DNA from: Desulfobacterales bacterium
GTDB taxonomy: Bacteria > Desulfobacterota > Desulfobacteria > Desulfobacterales > G963662235
Reading direction: 5' to 3'
NCBI GenBank assembly: GCA_963662235.1
Contig: OY759308.1
Coordinates: forward strand, 1,398,109-1,462,108
Length of the DNA stretch: 64,000 nucleotides
Shown here piece after piece: positions 1 to 10,884 of this stretch. How positions within the stretch are numbered: the first letter of the stretch is position 1; each line of letters begins with the position of its first letter. Under the pieces are notes generated by a model, which saw only the letters and a list, made by a program, of their open reading frames with translations, was not told where the DNA came from and searched no databases. Made by a program: the position numbers and the translations under genes.

Positions 1-571
1 CAAAAGATTCATTATTACGGATAATGTGGTCATAAAAACGAGATTGCCATGCAAAATCATCACAAATTTGTCGGACACGTTTTGTCACACCAGTTTTTAA
101 ACCACGAATTATAGATGCAAGGTTTTTTGATTGTGAACCAAATTTGTTTTTGATTTGTGATATAGTTTCACGACCATTATTTTTTTCCCCCTGTAGAGAC
201 GCAAGATTTTGCGTCTCTATAAGATTTTGCGTCTCTGCAATATTTTGTATCTTTACGGTGTCATTGTATTGATCAATCGTTTTGTAATTATCATTCGATT
301 TATTAATTATAATTATTCCATGCAAATGGTTTGGCATCACTACAAATTCATCCAATTCTACAAACGGAAAATGCTTGGGTATTTTCATCCAACATTTGTT
401 TGCAATTTCTCCAATTTCCGATAATTGCATTTTCCCATCTACGATATCGCCAAAATAACATTTCCTGTTTTGTGTGCAGATGGTTACAAAGTAGGTGGCG
501 TTCCATCCATAATCCCAATTTTGTAATCGAACAGATGATATGCGGTATCTATTTTGAAATTTGTCTGCCAT
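1..571 (-). CDS. REP-associated tyrosine transposase (RAYT; IS200/IS605-type Y1 HUH TnpA), 3' end cut by window edge
   Basis: Not in the ORF track because it has no in-window stop. My translation from the ATG at 571..569 reads MADKFQNRYRISSVRLQNWDYGWNATYFVTICTQNRKCYFGDIVDGKMQLSEIGEIANKCW...FVVMPNHLHGIIII (HUH motif) ...DDFAWQSRFYDHIIRNNESF (WQxRFYDHxIR Tyr region). REP hairpins lie on its 5' flank and inside it. Confidence 0.85.
   Translation of the reverse strand, partial: MADKFQNRYRISSVRLQNWDYGWNATYFVTICTQNRKCYFGDIVDGKMQLSEIGEIANKCWMKIPKHFPFVELDEFVVMPNHLHGIIIINKSNDNYKTIDQYNDTVKIQNIAETQNLIETQNLASLQGEKNNGRETISQIKNKFGSQSKNLASIIRGLKTGVTKRVRQICDDFAWQSRFYDHIIRNNESF
195..237. repeat. REP palindrome (full unit 195..220 TAGAGACGCAAGATTTTGCGTCTCTA plus half unit 221..237), located inside the RAYT CDS
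   Basis: Perfect hairpin preceded by GTAG. It is read in frame on the minus strand as ...AETQNLIETQNLASLQ... Confidence 0.9.
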
Positions 572-627: not shown

Positions 628-651
628 AGAGACGCAAAATCTTGCGTCTCT
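628..651. repeat. REP palindrome AGAGACGCAAAATCTTGCGTCTCT
   Basis: Same family as the other REP loci. It lies about 57 bp upstream of the RAYT start inside a conserved flank (caatgtaaata..aatattgaaatgcaata) that recurs at 5620-5652. Confidence 0.9.
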
Positions 652-1189
652 ACGATATCATAATTGTATTCCTTAATGGTTTTATTGCCATTGTATTTGG
701 AATTATGTCCATAGCGTAAATATCTTTGATTTTTTGATAAAAGAATTTTTCGGAAATACGAATTTCTCGAATGCGGTCTTGCAATTCGTTGAAATAGTTC
801 ATTGACGAACCCGATTTGAAACGCTCGTCATTCAATGCAAATCCCTTAATGATATATTCTTTTAAACGCTGTGTTGCCCAAATTCTAAATTGTGTACCTT
901 GTTTAGATTTTACGCGATAACCAACCGAAATTATAACATCGAGGTTGTAATAATTTGGAGCTTTTTGCTGAAATTCGGAATTTCCGAATTTTTGTAAAGT
1001 TGTTGATTCTGCAAGTTCTCCCTCATCATAAATGTTTTTGATATGTTCGTTTATAGTTGATTTTGCCTTACCAAACAATTGCCCCATTTGTGCCTGTGTT
1101 AACCAAACGGTTTCATCTTCAAAACGAACATCAACTTTTATTGTGCCGTCCTGACTTTGATATATGATTATTTCGCCGTTGTTGTTCAT
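650..1189 (-). pseudogene. RhuM-family protein, C-terminally truncated
   Basis: The N-terminal about 160 aa match the RhuM pattern (IIIYQSQDGTIKVDVRFEDETVWLTQAQMGQLFG...YNLDVIISVGYRVKS..GTQFRIWATQRLKEYIIKGFALNDERFK..FYQKIKDIYA). The ORF is about half the usual length and its stop (650..652) overlaps the end of a REP. Confidence 0.6.
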
Positions 1190-1307
1190 TTTTTTTGTGT
1201 TTTAATATTTTTTAATAACTTACTTGCAGGCTTATAATCTGCAACTTAGAAGATAGGTTTAAGATAACTTAATTAAGTGAATTGGCTATATTTTTCTAAT
1301 AATCCAA

Positions 1308-2024
1308 TTATCCTTCACTTACTGGTAATCTGTTAAGTTCTTCTTTAAAAAATTTCCATTGAGGAAGAAATTTATCCATTAAAGCCACAAATCTGTCATT
1401 ATGATAGCGTTCTATTAAATGAACCATTTCGTGAACAATAATGTATTCCAAGCAATGAATTGGTTTTTTTGCTAATTCCAAATTTATCCAAATTCGTTTT
1501 TTCTGAATATTGCATGTCCCCCATCTGGTTTTCATTTGTTTTACCTGCCATTCCGCGACATTCACACCAATTTTCTTTTCCCATTTTACAATGATTTCAG
1601 GAATCAGTTTTTTTAATTCTTTCCGATACCATTCCTTTAAAATTGCTTGTCTTTGTTTAACTGTAGAATTTGGACGAACAGATAAATCAATATATGCTTT
1701 TGTTTTTATTTCAACATTTGCAGGAGCTTTATGTTCTGTTATTCTCAGTAAAAATCTTTTACCTTGAAAATAATGACTTTCCCTATTTTTAAATTCTCTT
1801 GGTGATTGCCTGTCTTGTGCTTTAAAGTGTCTTTGATGTTTTCGTATCCAAGCAATTTTTGAAATGGCAAAAAGTCTTACGGTTTCATCATCAATCCATA
1901 AAGGTGTAGCAATGCGTACCCTACCTGTTGGAGGATAAACAGCCAAATGCATATTTTTGATGTTTTTTCGAACTACATCAATTGAAAGATTTGAAGTAAT
2001 ATGTAAAACTTTAACTTCTTCCAC
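1308..2024 (-). CDS. DUF45/YgjP-like (M48/SprT-type) zinc metallopeptidase
   Basis: WGTCNIQKKRIWINLELAKKP...YIIVHEMVHLIERYHNDRFVALMDKFLPQW carries the HExxH motif. GTG start sits 3 nt after the upstream small ORF stop. This family commonly follows hsdR in type I RM loci. Confidence 0.8.
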   Translation of the reverse strand: MEEVKVLHITSNLSIDVVRKNIKNMHLAVYPPTGRVRIATPLWIDDETVRLFAISKIAWIRKHQRHFKAQDRQSPREFKNRESHYFQGKRFLLRITEHKAPANVEIKTKAYIDLSVRPNSTVKQRQAILKEWYRKELKKLIPEIIVKWEKKIGVNVAEWQVKQMKTRWGTCNIQKKRIWINLELAKKPIHCLEYIIVHEMVHLIERYHNDRFVALMDKFLPQWKFFKEELNRLPVSEG

Positions 2025-2026
2025 GG

Positions 2027-2200
2027 CTATTTATATCCTCGTTGTTGCTTAATAACCTCAAAAATTGGTTCTAAAATTTCCACTTTGTTGTAATCTTCTA
2101 AAACAGGTTTGATTAGAGACGCAAAATTTTGCGTCTCTACAAATTCATCTGCCTTATCTTGTTCTAAATCGTCAATATTTCTAAATGTTTGTTCGGACAT
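2027..2200 (-). CDS. 57-aa small ORF of unknown function carrying an in-frame REP
   Basis: Below the ORF-track size cutoff. My translation is MSEQTFRNIDDLEQDKADEFVETQNFASLIKPVLEDYNKVEILEPIFEVIKQQRGYK. It is tightly coupled to the DUF45 gene and may be a gene remnant. Confidence 0.3.
   Translation of the reverse strand: MSEQTFRNIDDLEQDKADEFVETQNFASLIKPVLEDYNKVEILEPIFEVIKQQRGYK
2113..2138. repeat. REP palindrome TAGAGACGCAAAATTTTGCGTCTCTA
   Basis: Perfect 26-bp palindrome, in frame within the small ORF (VETQNFASL). Confidence 0.9.
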
Positions 2201-2427
2201 ATTTTTAATCTAATTTTATCAATTTGTTTTTTAAATAATCCAAAAAGGTATTGTATTATCAATTGTTTTTTAGCCTTGGGTTTAACGTTGAGTGTATGAT
2301 TTTTATAAGAAATTGCAGGCTTGAAAACTATTAAACTACTACCCCAAAAAGATGCGGGTTATAATACCGATAGAAAACCTATGAAATTTTTATCCATTAA
2401 TAAACATTATCGGCATTTCTTGCTTGT

Positions 2428-4305
2428 TTATTTTATCTCAATTAAAGTTTCTAAATAGTCTTTGTTTTCTTTTCTGCTTCTTTTTGTATATCCAAGTATG
2501 TCACATACATTTTCAATTTTTTGACAGAAAATATCTTGACTTAGTCTAGACATCCATAAATCGTCAGAGGTTGGGTTTGTTCTATTGGTCGAATGCCATT
2601 GAGATGCATCATCTAATGGGTGCTCAGGTCTAAAAGGAGAAATGTTGAATATTTTATGGTCTATTTGTGTTATCCAAGAAGCACCAACTTCTGTAATTGC
2701 TCCCCAAGATTGTTTTGTATTTTCACTTGTTATAAATAGAACAAATATTTTTTTGGTAGAATATGATTCAACAAAAAAATTTCTTAAATATTCATAAACC
2801 CCCATATTTTCAGGGACTCTGCAAACTTCATCATCGCAATTGGTGTATAGAATATCTTCTGATGGAACATTATTATAAACTAAAAATCTATAAACAATAT
2901 CAGCCAATGGTTTGTCTGGATAGGTTTGGCTGATTAATATTTTTTTCTTTTGGTCGTCAATGATACTCTTTATGCCTAAATCAGGAGAGTTACTATTAAT
3001 AGATTCTGATATTATTCTTTCAATTGTATCGGTAGGTACTTTTACGCCCAATTCGCTTATTTTCTGGGCTGCATTTGTACTTGCCTTTTTTCTAAATTCT
3101 TCAATTAATTGTTTTAATTGTTCTTCATTTTGTTTTTGATTCTTAATAGCTTTTTGTTTTTTTTTTGCTTTTGAAAAATCTGCATATTTTTTTCTTTTCT
3201 CTATAATTTTAGGTAAAAGAGTATTCTTAACATAATCAATTACCATTTCATATCGTGGGTCGTCTGATTTATAACCTTGCCTATTACTCAATGCCATATC
3301 TGCTAAATCAGAATGTTCAAATAAATCAACGTGTAACTGACCAACAATGAAGACTTCAATTAGTTTATTTTGACCAACAATAGGAAGTATGTTAAATTCT
3401 CCAAGTTTCTTATTTGCAAATAGTGAAATAAAATTATCAGGGAAGTCTGTCATTTCTGTTTTTCGGCCTCTTGTAGTTGTGTATGCTCCAATCCAACCCT
3501 TAATTTCTAAAATGTGTTCAGCATCTTCATTGTTTTTCTTCTTTAGAGTTATTGGAGAAGAGAAGATTTCTTTTTTTTCTACTAATTCAGCACGTCTTGG
3601 TGGATAATAATTTGGCACTAAATTAATTAAATGTGAGAACTCATCTCCTAAAGTTATAAGACAACATAATTCTCTCATAATATTTCTATCAAAATCTTCA
3701 ATAATTTCCTCTTCTTTTCCTCTTATTATGTGAATTTTAAAATCATTATTTACCAACGGAAATATCTTTAATAGATTTCTCTTAACTGCGGTTAATGTTT
3801 TGTGAAGACGATATTGAGGATTTCTCATTACAATGGCAGTTCCTTGATTGTCTGTGATTTTCAAAAATGTTATTTTATCTTCTTCTATTGGTTTTAATTT
3901 ATTTCCTTCTTTGGGTAATCTTGATAAAATAAAACCTGATTTTTCCCCATTTGCCATTGTCTTAATATCAACAAATTCAGAAACAGATAACGCAGCTAGT
4001 TTTCCAACACCTTTTCTTCCCATTTTTCTACGTTGTTTTGAACGAGTAAGGGATTCGCTTTCGTTAGAGCGAGAAACTCCTGCAACATTAAGATATTTTT
4101 CAATTTCTTTATTTTCATAAGACATTCCGTGTCCGTCATCTTCTACTGTAATGTCTGTTGAATTGGAAATGATGTAAACATTTTTAGCATCAGCATCATA
4201 GGCATTTGCTATTAATTCAGCTAAAACGTAATAAATATTTGTGTATAAATTTGGTCCAAGTAATTCTAAAATTCGCGGGTCAACATTTAATAAATATTCT
4301 TTCAT
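2428..4305 (-). CDS. MORC/paraMORC-like GHKL (HATPase_c_3) ATPase with coiled-coil linker and TIR-like C-terminal domain
   Basis: Bergerat motifs are present: ELIANAYDA (ExxxNxxD), DDGHGMS (DxGxG) and GRKGVGKLAA (GxxGxG). A K/Q-rich linker covers about aa 375-440. The C-terminus reads KKKILISQTYPDKPLADIVYRFL...IFVLFITSENTKQSWGAITEVGASW. Its start overlaps the dcm stop (ATGA). Confidence 0.75.
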   Translation of the reverse strand: MKEYLLNVDPRILELLGPNLYTNIYYVLAELIANAYDADAKNVYIISNSTDITVEDDGHGMSYENKEIEKYLNVAGVSRSNESESLTRSKQRRKMGRKGVGKLAALSVSEFVDIKTMANGEKSGFILSRLPKEGNKLKPIEEDKITFLKITDNQGTAIVMRNPQYRLHKTLTAVKRNLLKIFPLVNNDFKIHIIRGKEEEIIEDFDRNIMRELCCLITLGDEFSHLINLVPNYYPPRRAELVEKKEIFSSPITLKKKNNEDAEHILEIKGWIGAYTTTRGRKTEMTDFPDNFISLFANKKLGEFNILPIVGQNKLIEVFIVGQLHVDLFEHSDLADMALSNRQGYKSDDPRYEMVIDYVKNTLLPKIIEKRKKYADFSKAKKKQKAIKNQKQNEEQLKQLIEEFRKKASTNAAQKISELGVKVPTDTIERIISESINSNSPDLGIKSIIDDQKKKILISQTYPDKPLADIVYRFLVYNNVPSEDILYTNCDDEVCRVPENMGVYEYLRNFFVESYSTKKIFVLFITSENTKQSWGAITEVGASWITQIDHKIFNISPFRPEHPLDDASQWHSTNRTNPTSDDLWMSRLSQDIFCQKIENVCDILGYTKRSRKENKDYLETLIEIK

Positions 4306-5360
4306 AAGCCGTTGTTTTCAAGGTGTTTTATTATACTTTTCCCAATAGCGTAACCTAAATCAACTGGAACCGCATTTCCAATATGTACTCCAAGTTTTGT
4401 TATTAAAATATCTTTTTCGTCTTTATAGAATGCGTATTTTTGAGGGAATGTTTGAAATAATGCCGCTTCACGTATCGTTATAGCTCTGTCTTGTTCGGGG
4501 TGTCCAAATCTACCTGTTCCATAATTGAAAAATTGAGTTGTAATAGTCGGAGAAGGTTGTTCCCAACTCATTCTGCCATAAACAGATTTATAAGTATTTC
4601 CTGTCTCTTTTTTGTGGCATTTTAATCTTAAGTTTTCATCCCAATCAAGCCAAGTTCCATTGGGTTTTGAGGCTCTGATTCTTGCGATGTTTTTTTGAGA
4701 CATACTTGTTGTAAAATGGAGTGGGTCTTCTTTTATTTTCTCGCCTGCTTTAACTTTGGGTAAAGAGCCAATAACATCGTTTGTTGTCTTGTAGTTTTGA
4801 GGAGAGTGAGTTTTTTCTATAATTTTTATTTTGCCAAGTTTTGAAGCTAATAAAACCAATCGTCGCCTTTTCTGCGGAATTCCATAATCAGGACAATATA
4901 CATTTGAGTATGACACAAAATACTTATGTTCTTTTAGAAAGTCTACAAATTGTCTGAATATATCTTTGTTCGCTAAATTTGGGACATTTTCCATTGATAC
5001 TACAATTGGAGAAGTTTCTTCTATTAATCTTTTAAATTGGTTTAATAAATTCCACTTGTCTCCATTCTCTTTGTCCTTAACTTTATTAGAATGAGTTGAA
5101 AAAGGCTGACACGGAGCACAGCCGACAAGAATTCGATTCTCGTTATTTCTCCAATATTTAGCAATTAAATCTTTGCCTTTAATAGAAGATATGTCATCTC
5201 CAATAAATTTGGCTTTATTATTTGTTTTGTATGCGTATTCGCAAGATAAATCTTGGTCTATTCCTGCTATAACTTTTATACCTGCTTTTCTTAGTCCGTA
5301 AGAAAGTCCTCCAATTCCGCAGAACAGGTCAATAGCTGATATATTTTCTTTGAATTTCAT
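4302..5360 (-). CDS. dcm: DNA (cytosine-5)-methyltransferase
   Basis: Motif I is DLFCGIGG, motif IV is GCAPCQPFS, motif VI is ENV and motif VIII is QKRRR. The C-terminus carries GNAVPV. Confidence 0.93.
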   Translation of the reverse strand: MKFKENISAIDLFCGIGGLSYGLRKAGIKVIAGIDQDLSCEYAYKTNNKAKFIGDDISSIKGKDLIAKYWRNNENRILVGCAPCQPFSTHSNKVKDKENGDKWNLLNQFKRLIEETSPIVVSMENVPNLANKDIFRQFVDFLKEHKYFVSYSNVYCPDYGIPQKRRRLVLLASKLGKIKIIEKTHSPQNYKTTNDVIGSLPKVKAGEKIKEDPLHFTTSMSQKNIARIRASKPNGTWLDWDENLRLKCHKKETGNTYKSVYGRMSWEQPSPTITTQFFNYGTGRFGHPEQDRAITIREAALFQTFPQKYAFYKDEKDILITKLGVHIGNAVPVDLGYAIGKSIIKHLENNGL

Positions 5361-5652: not shown

Positions 5653-5678
5653 TAGAGACGCAAAATCTTGCGTCTCTA
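5653..5678. repeat. REP palindrome TAGAGACGCAAAATCTTGCGTCTCTA with the conserved RAYT-5'-flank sequence to its left
   Basis: 5620-5680 is near-identical to 596-655. Confidence 0.9.
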
Positions 5679-5750: not shown

Positions 5751-5888
5751 CAACGATTGCGACCATTATTCCCACCACCCCCCTGTAGAGACGCAAGATT
5801 TTGCGTCTCTGTAAGATTTTGCGTCTCTATAAGATTTTGTATTTTTGCGACATTTTGCTTTTTGCAGTATTGCATCTATCAATGGTAT
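5751..5888 (-). pseudogene. Internal fragment of a second RAYT copy
   Basis: Nucleotide-level homology to 150-290. The minus strand reads ...KIQNLIETQNLTETQNLASLQGGGGNNGRNR* compared with KIQNIAETQNLIETQNLASLQGEKNNGRETIS in the 1..571 copy. The frame is broken upstream and no HUH or Tyr regions are present. Confidence 0.6.
5786..5846. repeat. REP cluster (one full palindrome, one half unit and one degenerate half unit)
   Basis: The sequence is tagagacgcaagattttgcgtctct gtaagattttgcgtctcta taagattttgtattttt. Confidence 0.85.
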
Positions 5889-9606: not shown

Positions 9607-9647
9607 AAACGCAAAATTTTGCAGAGACGCAAAATCTTGCGTCTCTA
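9606..9647. repeat. REP (degenerate half unit plus full palindrome AGAGACGCAAAATCTTGCGTCTCT at 9623..9646)
   Basis: The sequence is aaaacgcaaaattttgc agagacgcaaaatcttgcgtctcta. Confidence 0.85.
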
Positions 9648-10844: not shown

Positions 10845-10884
10845 TAGAGACGCAAAATCTTGTGTCTCTACGGCGTCTCTACGG
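10845..10884. repeat. REP palindrome (TAGAGACGCAAAATCTTGTGTCTCTA) plus an extra right half (cggcgtctctacgg)
   Basis: Last copy of this family in the window. Confidence 0.85.

What the first reader, a model, noticed from the sequence alone, without database searches (positions are those of the whole stretch)
2428..5360. Coupled 5mC methyltransferase and MORC-like GHKL ATPase with a TIR-like C-terminus and no nuclease: candidate undescribed defence module
Seen in sequence:
- The dcm stop and the ATPase start share ATGA (4302..4305), so the two genes form one translationally coupled operon.
- The 625-aa ATPase carries a complete Bergerat fold (ELIANAYDA, DDGHGMS, GRKGVGKLAA).
- A K/Q-rich coiled-coil linker follows.
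- The last about 170 aa form a C-terminal alpha/beta domain. It opens with KKKILISQTYPDKPLADIVYRFL and contains IFVLFITSENTKQSWGAITEVGASW. By eye this follows the bacterial TIR/TIR-like layout: a beta-strand start, then a serine-rich strand with a conserved W and E.

Established knowledge: comparative genomics has predicted MORC/paraMORC GHKL ATPases embedded in RM-like operons. TIR domains act as NAD-consuming effectors in several anti-phage systems.

Inference: methylation marks self DNA, and the ATPase senses unmodified DNA and triggers a non-nuclease effector. No restriction endonuclease, Vsr, Z1 or AIPR partner is visible nearby. The pair sits in a REP/RAYT-riddled accessory island.
Basis: partly seen in the sequence, partly recalled or inferred. 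Interest (0 to 1): 0.72.

Follow-up and report, generated by a model that had tools for sequence, protein, structure and literature searches.

The report
Methylase paired with ATPase–TIR "restriction" protein
A DNA cytosine methylase gene is coupled to a gene whose product looks like a known restriction enzyme in which the DNA-cutting end has been replaced by a TIR domain, so foreign unmethylated DNA probably triggers NAD+ destruction and cell arrest rather than DNA cutting.

Summary
On the minus strand, an intact 5mC methyltransferase gene (5360..4302) overlaps by ATGA a 625-aa gene (4305..2428). That protein has a GHKL+S5 ATPase module (res 1-345), one long helix (350-443) and a TIR domain (455-625).

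The TIR call, made by eye, holds. Its closest relative by sequence and by fold is the NADase SpbK, and the catalytic Glu (E539) is invariant.

The first ~400 residues are homologous to BbrUII/HgiDII type II restriction enzymes, but their PD-(D/E)xK-like C-terminus is replaced here by coiled coil plus TIR.

Of 74 related loci, 52 have a same-family dcm adjacent, 12 lie inside class-1 DISARM operons, and 3 have another methylase. True BbrUII/HgiDII enzymes use the same dcm family.

Best reading (0.5): an effector-swapped restriction-modification module in which unmethylated DNA triggers NAD+ depletion.

It is not wholly undescribed: GHKL+TIR fusions ("paraMORC4") in restriction-modification neighbourhoods were predicted in 2008. 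I found no experimental work and no dedicated PADLOC model. Novelty: new variant of a known kind. Interest 0.62.

The parts
4302..5360 (-). dcm: 352-aa C5-cytosine DNA methyltransferase. The catalytic Cys84 (PCQ) codon is at 5109-5111.
   Evidence: PF00145 E 1e-58, TIGR00675 above cutoff, best PADLOC model DrmMII PDLC02651 E 9e-97. The motifs can be read in the sequence. It is 42-74% identical, target-recognition domain included, to the dcm genes next to homologous ATPases.
4302..4305 (-). ATGA overlap of the dcm stop and the ATPase start (translational coupling).
   Evidence: Read directly. The same -4 overlap occurs in 9 related loci, including overlaps with DrmMI in DISARM operons. Most junctions have gaps of -20 to +34 nt.
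2428..4305 (-). 625-aa GHKL-S5-coiled coil-TIR protein (paraMORC-type ATPase with a TIR effector).
   Evidence: ORF. 2732 homologs, with the top 120 about 70% identical across many phyla. AF2 model with mean pLDDT 85.6.
3916..4305 (-). GHKL (Bergerat) ATP-binding domain, residues 1-130.
   Evidence: PF13589 residues 26-128. E30, N34, D37, D56, G58, G60 and G96-K102 are invariant in 44 homologs. Foldseek hits Hsp90, MORC3/4 and MutL N-terminal domains.
3271..3915 (-). Transducer/S5-like middle domain, residues 131-345, ending in the conserved motif DMALSNRQGY (R342 invariant).
   Evidence: AF2 and Foldseek alignment to the MORC4 ATPase module, TMt 0.55, and to MutL NTD. NF050001 BbrUII/HgiDII profile positions 1-406 match residues 4-424 at E 6.5e-68. 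Invariant columns.
2977..3258 (-). Long K/E/Q-rich helix, residues 350-443 (probable dimeric coiled-coil tether).
   Evidence: A single helix H350-418 plus H425-443 in the AF2 model, pLDDT 96 falling to 52 along it. Coiled-coil pairing is inferred.
2431..2943 (-). SpbK-type TIR domain, residues 455-625. The catalytic Glu539 codon is at 2689-2691.
   Evidence: E539, G541 and W544 are invariant and align with SpbK E192, G194 and W197, which were mutated in PMC12847820.

Best explanation
This is a two-gene, restriction-modification-like abortive-infection module.

The Dcm enzyme methylates a fixed short site on host DNA. Because it belongs to the same family as the methylases that partner HgiDII/BbrUII-type enzymes and DISARM DrmMII, the site is probably a TCGA-core hexamer (inferred).

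The partner protein keeps the GHKL+S5 ATPase 'front end' of BbrUII/HgiDII type II restriction enzymes. Their nuclease end has been exchanged for a coiled coil and a SpbK-type TIR domain.

Proposed sequence of events, all inferred:
1. Unmethylated foreign DNA is detected, either by the middle domain itself or through the co-translated Dcm acting as the specificity subunit.
2. ATP-driven dimerisation or clustering of the GHKL heads on that DNA brings TIR domains together.
3. The assembled TIRs form the composite active site and hydrolyse NAD+ to ADPR or cADPR isomers.
4. The infected cell is arrested or killed.

Shown here: gene structure, domain folds, conservation of catalytic residues, homology to real restriction enzymes, and conserved linkage to one dcm family.
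For: - TIR identity and an intact active site. Several of the SpbK NAD-pocket positions are conserved in character: T461/S121, T488/T148, V497/I155, Y504/F162, L507/L165, E539/E192. This comes from the alignment read against PMC12847820.
- ATPase motifs are invariant, and the GHKL+S5 fold is MORC/MutL/Hsp90-like with no nuclease fold.
- Residues 4-424 match positions 1-406 of the 659-position BbrUII/HgiDII profile.
- Genuine family members (723-781 bits, cutoff 550) carry a PD-(D/E)xK-like C-terminus instead of TIR. They sit next to dcm genes whose recognition domain is 49-60% identical to the window's. That equals the similarity among dcm partners of TIR versions.
- Linkage: 52 of 74 GHKL-TIR loci have a same-family dcm adjacent, in three different gene orders. 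12 are in class-1 DISARM operons. For 2 of those the flank reached far enough, and both also carry this dcm family (L014, L191). 2 more loci have another dcm plus Vsr plus AIPR, and 1 has an N4/N6 methylase plus HNH.
- The module occurs on mobile elements: a prophage end, a T4SS element and IMG/VR contigs.
Against: - No experiment exists, and NADase activity is untested.
- The window's clade has Q460 where most of the family and SpbK have His.
- The protein has no recognisable DNA-reading domain, so it is unexplained how methylation status would be read.
- In DISARM operons the gene is coupled to the N6A methylase DrmMI rather than to dcm. That fits a protein-protein guard model at least as well.
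- Killing the cell on entry of any unmethylated DNA seems costly.
- The dcm specificity is not determined. PDB methylases give no match to the recognition domain.
Confidence: 0.5

Rival explanations
1. PrrC-like guard. The ATPase-TIR protein is held silent by binding its neighbouring methylase or RM/DISARM complex. It fires its NADase when a phage anti-restriction factor disables or sequesters that complex. It acts as a second line of defence, not as a reader of DNA methylation.
For: - In 12 loci the gene is inserted between drmMI and drmA of class-1 DISARM and is often ATGA-coupled to DrmMI, in the way prrC sits inside an hsd operon.
- The ATPase stays 64-75% identical while the adjacent methylase varies.
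- The HEPN survey proposed the same PrrC/RloC analogy for paraMORC-HEPN fusions (PMC3710099).
- No DNA-reading domain is evident in the protein.
Against: - The front end is homologous to enzymes that act directly on unmethylated DNA.
- The two-gene form has no restriction complex to guard.
- The partner dcm's recognition domain is conserved across effector types, which suggests the site itself matters.
Confidence: 0.2
2. The protein is a true restriction enzyme. This TIR version acts on nucleic acid, as a nuclease, glycosylase or 2',3'-cNMP-forming activity, and damages unmethylated DNA directly. Iyer et al. suggested this in 2008.
For: - It occupies the position of the nuclease domain in BbrUII/HgiDII homologs.
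- The 2008 paper raised this possibility.
- Weaker fold matches to nucleoside 2'-deoxyribosyltransferases and a CMP N-glycosidase (E about 1e-2).
Against: - The nearest relative by far is the NADase SpbK, with the catalytic Glu and the interface Gly and Trp conserved.
- The next fold hits are the NADase TIRs of SPARTA.
Confidence: 0.1
3. The TIR acts as a signal generator. It makes a cADPR-type messenger, as in Thoeris, and the messenger activates an unlinked effector. Bulk NAD+ depletion would not be the killing mechanism.
For: SpbK makes N1-cADPR as well as ADPR (PMC12847820).
Against: No conserved third gene accompanies the pair. YgjP, orf57 and RhuM are not conserved, and the flanks differ between loci.
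Confidence: 0.1
4. The pair is not a defence system. It would be an epigenetic or chromatin module in which a MORC-like clamp acts on methylated DNA.
For: The GHKL+S5 module resembles eukaryotic MORC ATPases.
Against: - Patchy, horizontally spread distribution with about 70% identity across phyla.
- Location on prophages, conjugative elements and inside DISARM.
- An NADase-type TIR with an intact catalytic Glu.
Confidence: 0.05

Closest known systems
paraMORC4 family (Iyer, Abhiman & Aravind 2008, PMC2292703)
   Same: GHKL + S5 + C-terminal TIR in one polypeptide, encoded in restriction-modification neighbourhoods with DNA methylases, with a patchy distribution that suggests horizontal transfer.
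   Different: - paraMORC4 is known only as a computational prediction. Its authors guessed that the TIR was a nuclease or an allosteric site.
- Their diagnostic Hx[ST]xD loop motif is QTYPD in the window protein. The His is present in most of the wider family.
- I could not map their sequences onto this family.
BbrUII/HgiDII family type II restriction enzymes (NCBIfam NF050001; R.HgiDII in PMC2441816)
   Same: - Homologous over the first ~400 residues (GHKL, S5 and the start of the helix), E 6.5e-68.
- Same partner dcm family, including the recognition domain.
- Same operon layout.
   Different: - The window protein scores 230 bits against a cutoff of 550.
- The family's C-terminal ~250 aa (motifs LDPSWER...RIDI.K...IIExKR, PD-(D/E)xK-like by motif) are replaced by a coiled coil plus TIR.
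SpbK (Bacillus subtilis ICEBs1 abortive-infection NADase; PDB 9phb, PMC12847820)
   Same: - Closest TIR domain by sequence and by fold.
- The catalytic Glu and the filament-interface Gly and Trp are conserved.
- The expected chemistry is NAD+ to ADPR/N1-cADPR on oligomerisation.
   Different: SpbK's sensor is a small 4-helix bundle that binds the phage portal protein YonE. Here the sensor is a 345-aa GHKL ATPase linked to a methylase.
paraMORC-HEPN (Ymh) fusions and PrrC/RloC (PMC3710099)
   Same: An ATPase with a suicidal non-DNase effector embedded in RM loci. I found HEPN-like (Rx4H) versions on the same front end next to the same dcm family (L174, L190).
   Different: The effector is an RNase rather than a TIR. 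PrrC uses an ABC-type ATPase and is triggered by inhibition of the RM enzyme.
Class-1 DISARM with DrmMII (10.1101/2021.12.28.474362)
   Same: The window's dcm is best matched by a PADLOC DrmMII model. In 12 loci the ATPase-TIR gene sits between drmMI and drmA.
   Different: The window contains no drmA, drmB, drmC, drmD or drmMI. The characterised Serratia system has six genes and no ATPase-TIR gene.
GHKL-Shedu (VcSduA, PMC12137116) and short pAgo SPARTA
   Same: A sensor module tethered to a swappable effector. In SPARTA, detection of nucleic acid drives TIR oligomerisation and NAD+ loss.
   Different: The sensors differ and no methylase partner is present.

Membership tests
GHKL (Bergerat-fold) ATPase | Motifs I-IV (ExxxNAxD, DxGxG, GxxGxG-type lid, GT) and the fold. 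| tested here: met
   PF13589 E 4e-18. Invariant E30, N34, D37, D56, G58, G60, G96-K102 and G155. Foldseek hits to Hsp90, MORC and MutL.
paraMORC4 (Iyer 2008) | GHKL + S5 domain + C-terminal TIR in one protein. | tested here: met
   AF2 model and Foldseek.
paraMORC4 (Iyer 2008) | Hx[ST]xD motif in the loop after the first TIR strand. | tested here: not met
   The window has S459-Q-T-Y-P-D464. Most family members have ISH[TSA]xxD, and only some of them fit Hx[ST]xD.
paraMORC4 (Iyer 2008) | Encoded in restriction-modification neighbourhoods with DNA methylases. | tested here: met
MORC sensu stricto | S5-domain signature GhXhhpXXRhl that unites MORCs. | not tested
   Only fold similarity to MORC3/4 was seen. 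NCBIfam places the protein with BbrUII/HgiDII relatives.
BbrUII/HgiDII restriction enzymes (NF050001) | Full-length match above the curated cutoff of 550 bits. | tested here: not met
   229.8 bits, profile positions 1-406 of 659 only. True members score 723-781 bits.
BbrUII/HgiDII restriction enzymes (NF050001) | C-terminal nuclease-like domain (D...ExK motif). | tested here: not met
   The C-terminus is a TIR domain. The nuclease-type motif is seen only in relatives.
TIR NADase (SpbK type) | TIR fold. | tested here: met
   Foldseek 9phb_A E 3.4e-9, TM 0.78, rmsd 3.3 A.
TIR NADase (SpbK type) | Catalytic glutamate in the alpha-C region. | tested here: met
   E539 aligns with SpbK E192. It is invariant in 44 and in 31 sequences.
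TIR NADase (SpbK type) | NAD+ hydrolysis on oligomerisation. | not testable with these tools
   Needs an enzyme assay.
Classical type II restriction-modification system | A methyltransferase plus a cognate endonuclease. | tested here: not met
   The methyltransferase is present. No nuclease domain is present in the partner or the neighbours.
DISARM | drmA, drmB and drmC core genes in the locus. | tested here: not met
   tblastn of DrmA, DrmB, DrmD and DrmMI against the window gave no hit. drmC was not among the queries, but Pfam found no PLD domain in the five ORFs scanned at 650-5360.
Mza / dcm-vsr-GHKL-Z1-AIPR type systems | Z1, AIPR and Vsr partners. | tested here: not met
   None among the five ORFs scanned with Pfam at 650-5360. 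The MzaB model does not match the window protein. The rest of the window was not scanned for Z1, AIPR or Vsr.

The most novel reading that the evidence does not exclude
The GHKL+S5 front end shared with HgiDII/BbrUII enzymes is a portable sensor of unmethylated sites. Evolution has plugged it into at least three kinds of effector while it stays paired with one dcm family: a DNase (true restriction enzymes), a TIR NADase (this locus) and a HEPN-like RNase. The window would then encode a restriction-modification system whose 'R' arm kills by NAD+ depletion instead of cutting DNA. The same unit can also be slotted into DISARM operons.
Probability: 0.45. Interest if true: 0.8.

Novelty: new variant of a known kind. 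Interest (0 to 1): 0.62.

Why it matters
If the mechanism holds, it joins two branches of bacterial immunity that are usually treated separately: self/non-self marking by DNA methylation, and abortive infection by NAD+ depletion.

It would also explain what the long-unassigned GHKL module of HgiDII-type restriction enzymes does. That module would act as a sensor or switch that can drive interchangeable effectors.

The family is large (over 2,700 homologs) and widespread in gut and environmental bacteria. It has no dedicated model in PADLOC (2023 release), so it is probably under-counted in defence-system censuses.

It offers a compact two-gene system for testing how a MORC-like ATPase reads DNA methylation. 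That question also matters for eukaryotic MORCs.

Tried and rejected
- Pfam on the C-terminal 184 aa alone found nothing. Only the PDB sequence search, the PADLOC spbK model and the fold search revealed the TIR domain.
- I first read the family as swapping partners between unrelated methylases, because ATPase and dcm identities correlate weakly (Spearman 0.12). I rejected that reading. The dcm recognition domain is as conserved as the catalytic core, and DISARM-embedded copies also have this dcm family in the operon.
- I rejected YgjP, the 57-aa ORF and RhuM as third components, because they are conserved only in the same organism's other assembly.
- The promoter and terminator scan was uninformative: fewer promoter-like sites than in shuffles, and the 'terminators' are the REP palindromes.
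- PDB methylases gave no match to the recognition domain, so specificity could not be inferred. GTCGAC counts in the window are too low to test avoidance (0 observed, 1.4-1.6 expected).
- The organism could not be named, because the cluster look-ups carry no names.
- Five full-text literature searches for an experimental GHKL-TIR-methylase system returned nothing relevant.
- Subscription-journal papers are not covered by those searches.
Full report
**Observation**

The window's minus strand carries two intact, overlapping genes. dcm runs 5360..4302 (352 aa), and a 625-aa ORF runs 4305..2428. The dcm stop and the ATPase start share ATGA at 4302-4305.

The first gene is a C5-cytosine methyltransferase. 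It matches PF00145 at E 1e-58, and its best PADLOC model is DrmMII PDLC02651 at E 9e-97. All catalytic motifs can be read in the sequence, including PC84Q.

The second protein has a GHKL ATP-binding domain (PF13589, residues 26-128). They are invariant in an alignment of 44 family members that are only 23-75% identical to the window protein.

**Anatomy of the 625-aa protein**

An AlphaFold2 model built on that alignment is confident (mean pLDDT 85.6). It shows three parts:
- residues 1-345: an alpha/beta module;
- residues 350-443: one very long helix;
- residues 455-625: a compact alpha/beta domain.

Foldseek places the N-terminal module with Hsp90/GRP94, the MORC3 and MORC4 ATPase cassettes (TM 0.49-0.55 on the target) and the MutL N-terminal domain. 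This is the GHKL plus S5/transducer arrangement. No nuclease fold was found.

A separate model of residues 446-625 is also confident (pLDDT 89.5, pTM 0.87). Its best PDB match is the TIR domain of Bacillus subtilis SpbK (9phb_A, E 3.4e-9, TM 0.78, rmsd 3.3 A). SPARTA TIR-APAZ and MyD88 TIR domains follow, and nucleoside 2'-deoxyribosyltransferases appear only much more weakly.

Sequence evidence agrees with the fold evidence:
- phmmer against PDB sequences finds SpbK at E 2e-5.
- The PADLOC spbK model matches at E 3.5e-16.
- Pfam alone finds nothing in this region.

In the alignment, E539, G541 and W544 correspond to SpbK E192, G194 and W197. E192 is SpbK's active-site glutamate, and G194 and W197 were also mutated in the structural study (PMC12847820). 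All three are invariant across the family.

**Relatives of the front end**

NCBIfam's 'BbrUII/HgiDII family restriction enzyme' model (NF050001) matches residues 4-424 at E 6.5e-68. The match covers only profile positions 1-406 of 659 and scores 230 bits against a cutoff of 550. The front end is shared, and the C-terminus is not.

Scans of metagenome and viral contigs returned many loci whose GHKL protein matches only the first ~360-420 residues of the window protein. Three that I scored are genuine full-length NF050001 members at 723-781 bits. Their C-termini carry a motif series that looks PD-(D/E)xK-like (LDPSWER ... RIDI.K ... IIE.KR). That assignment is by motif only. In 2008 this domain of R.HgiDII was still listed as an unknown fold (PMC2441816).

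Other proteins share the same front end but have different C-termini:
- a HEPN-like Rx4H C-terminus (L174, L190; by motif only);
- an unassigned C-terminus that is a full-length match to PADLOC's REase_II model PDLC03485 (L167);
- a second TIR clade with a C-terminal zinc ribbon (L067, L115; Pfam TIR_2 at 29.5 bits, spbK model at E 1e-32 to 1e-34).

The window protein is thus one member of a series in which one ATPase front end carries interchangeable effector domains.

**Gene linkage**

I examined 74 loci that encode a GHKL-TIR protein, excluding the window and its duplicate L022. They came from genome, metagenome and viral collections.

| Context | Loci |
|---|---|
| Same-family dcm within 1.5 kb | 52 |
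| Inside class-1 DISARM operons, between drmMI and drmA | 12 |
| HNH gene plus N4/N6 methylase | 1 |
| Different dcm family plus Vsr plus AIPR | 2 |
| Cut on one side, uninformative | 7 |

Of the 52 loci with an adjacent dcm, 40 have it upstream on the same strand, 6 downstream on the same strand and 6 convergent. The DISARM assignment rests.

For two DISARM loci the flank reached far enough (L014 and L191). The operon there also contains this dcm family, 49% identical to the window's, and L191 also carries Vsr.

Gaps between the upstream methylase and the ATPase are mostly -20 to +34 nt. The ATGA overlap recurs nine times, including overlaps with DrmMI.

The downstream YgjP-like peptidase, the 57-aa ORF and the truncated RhuM of the window are not conserved with the pair. 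The window contains no homolog of DrmA, DrmB, DrmD, DrmMI, the AspBHI-like enzyme or the L028 HNH protein. Some loci include near-duplicates, so these counts are not independent events.

**The methylase family**

Across the dcm partners, the target-recognition region (window residues 185-291) is as conserved as the catalytic core. Mean pairwise identity is 0.56 against 0.51.

The dcm genes next to true BbrUII/HgiDII-type nucleases are as similar to the window's dcm in this region as those next to TIR versions are:
- nuclease partners: 0.49-0.60, mean 0.55;
- TIR partners: mean 0.55;
- between-class similarity equals within-class similarity.

Of 124 loci with non-TIR relatives, 107 have this dcm family within 3 kb.

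From established knowledge, HgiDII and BbrUII are SalI isoschizomers that recognise GTCGAC. The characterised Serratia DrmMII methylates MTCGAK. I therefore infer a TCGA-core target for the window's dcm, but I could not test this. PDB methylases do not match the recognition region, and GTCGAC is too rare in this AT-rich window to assess avoidance.

**How it most likely works**

Shown:
- an active-looking methylase;
- an ATPase with intact catalytic motifs;
- a TIR domain with an intact NADase-type active site;
- homology of the front end to real restriction enzymes;
- near-universal linkage to a methylase.

Inferred:
- The pair behaves like a restriction-modification system whose restriction arm has been exchanged for an NAD+-consuming effector.
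- SpbK-type TIRs need TIR-TIR assembly for activity, and GHKL ATPases dimerise on ATP.
- The simplest model is that recognition of unmethylated DNA drives ATP-dependent dimerisation or clustering. The coiled coil then brings the TIR domains together and NAD+ is hydrolysed.
- Recognition could be by the middle domain, or by the co-translated Dcm acting as the specificity subunit, as Mod does in type III systems.

I give this model 0.5.

The main rival, at 0.2, is a PrrC-like guard that fires when the neighbouring methylase or DISARM machinery is inhibited. This reading is encouraged by the insertion between drmMI and drmA, and by the earlier proposal for paraMORC-HEPN fusions (PMC3710099).

The less likely rivals are:
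- a nucleic-acid-targeting TIR, as suggested in 2008;
- a TIR that makes a signalling nucleotide for an unlinked effector;
- a non-defence chromatin role.

**Comparison with what is known, and novelty**

The architecture is not unprecedented. Iyer, Abhiman and Aravind (2008) defined paraMORC families in restriction-modification neighbourhoods and noted that paraMORC4 carries a C-terminal TIR domain with an Hx[ST]xD loop motif. Most of the present family has the His, as SpbK does (HSSKD). The window's clade has Q (QTYPD). I could not map their sequences, so formal membership is open.

Five full-text searches found no experimental study of a GHKL-TIR-methylase system. PADLOC v2 matches the protein only piecewise, through REase_II front-end models and spbK. 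Public annotations call it 'ATP-binding protein'.

New points from this analysis:
- the TIR is specifically SpbK-like with an invariant catalytic Glu;
- the front end and the partner dcm are shared with bona fide HgiDII/BbrUII enzymes, which makes this an effector swap;
- the same unit is embedded in class-1 DISARM operons.

I rate it a new variant of a known kind, with interest 0.62.

**Limits**

All functional statements are inferences from sequence, predicted structure and gene context. The nuclease and HEPN assignments of the sibling C-termini rest on motifs only. The source organism was not identified. Literature coverage excludes most subscription journals.

Noticed in passing
window 1-64000: Extreme avoidance of short palindromes. 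GCGC is completely absent, with about 36 expected from a Markov model. CTAG occurs 5 times against 115 expected, GATC 27 against 138, CATG 33 against 124, GGCC 12 against 46, and CCGG 9 against 25. TCGA is only mildly low at 89 against 134. This points to heavy restriction pressure on this AT-rich (29.5% GC) genome.
   Followed up: partly
window 196-217, 629-650, 2116-2137, 5655-5676, 5788-5809, 9624-9645, 10847-10868: A 22-bp REP-like perfect palindrome, GAGACGCAARATYTTGCGTCTC, occurs 7 times, with none expected by chance. All copies lie in the first 11 kb and bracket the dcm/ATPase pair. The copy at 2116 lies inside the 57-aa ORF at 2027-2200, which makes that ORF doubtful. I did not look for a RAYT transposase.
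   Followed up: partly
window 650-1189 and 1308-2024 (minus strand): A RhuM-family ORF covers only the first half of PADLOC PDC-S05 models (1-166 of 336), so it is probably truncated. A YgjP-like metallopeptidase lies next to it (PF01863, E 4e-58). Neither gene is conserved next to the module elsewhere.
   Followed up: yes
L005, L007, L008, L010, L011, L014, L016, L017, L019, L033, L054, L062, L191: The ATPase-TIR gene is inserted inside class-1 DISARM operons between drmMI and drmA, often ATGA-coupled to DrmMI. L191 reads HTH-dcm-drmD-Mrr-drmMI-ATPase/TIR-drmA-drmB-drmC-vsr. L011 and L014 add an AspBHI-like 5mC-dependent nuclease.
   Followed up: partly
L081, L100, L152 (nuclease type); L174, L190 (HEPN-like Rx4H); L167 (unknown C-terminus); L067-L073, L115-L116 (TIR + Zn ribbon): The same ~375-aa GHKL+S5 front end carries at least four different C-terminal domains. 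All but the Zn-ribbon TIR clade sit next to the same dcm family.
   Followed up: partly
L029 6001-9190; L023 1-9845; L111-L116: Distant family members ride on mobile elements. One lies just after a prophage holin/lysin cassette and is followed by a McrB_N+NOV_C gene. One is inside a T4SS conjugative element with the dcm downstream. Several are on IMG/VR viral contigs, and L116 has AIPR-dcm-vsr upstream and an integrase downstream.
   Followed up: partly
window 2926-2928 (codon of Q460): The window's ~70%-identity clade has Gln where SpbK and most of the family have His (ISQT versus ISH[TSA]) in the loop after the first TIR strand. This is the position of the 2008 'Hx[ST]xD' motif. The functional meaning is unknown.
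   Followed up: no
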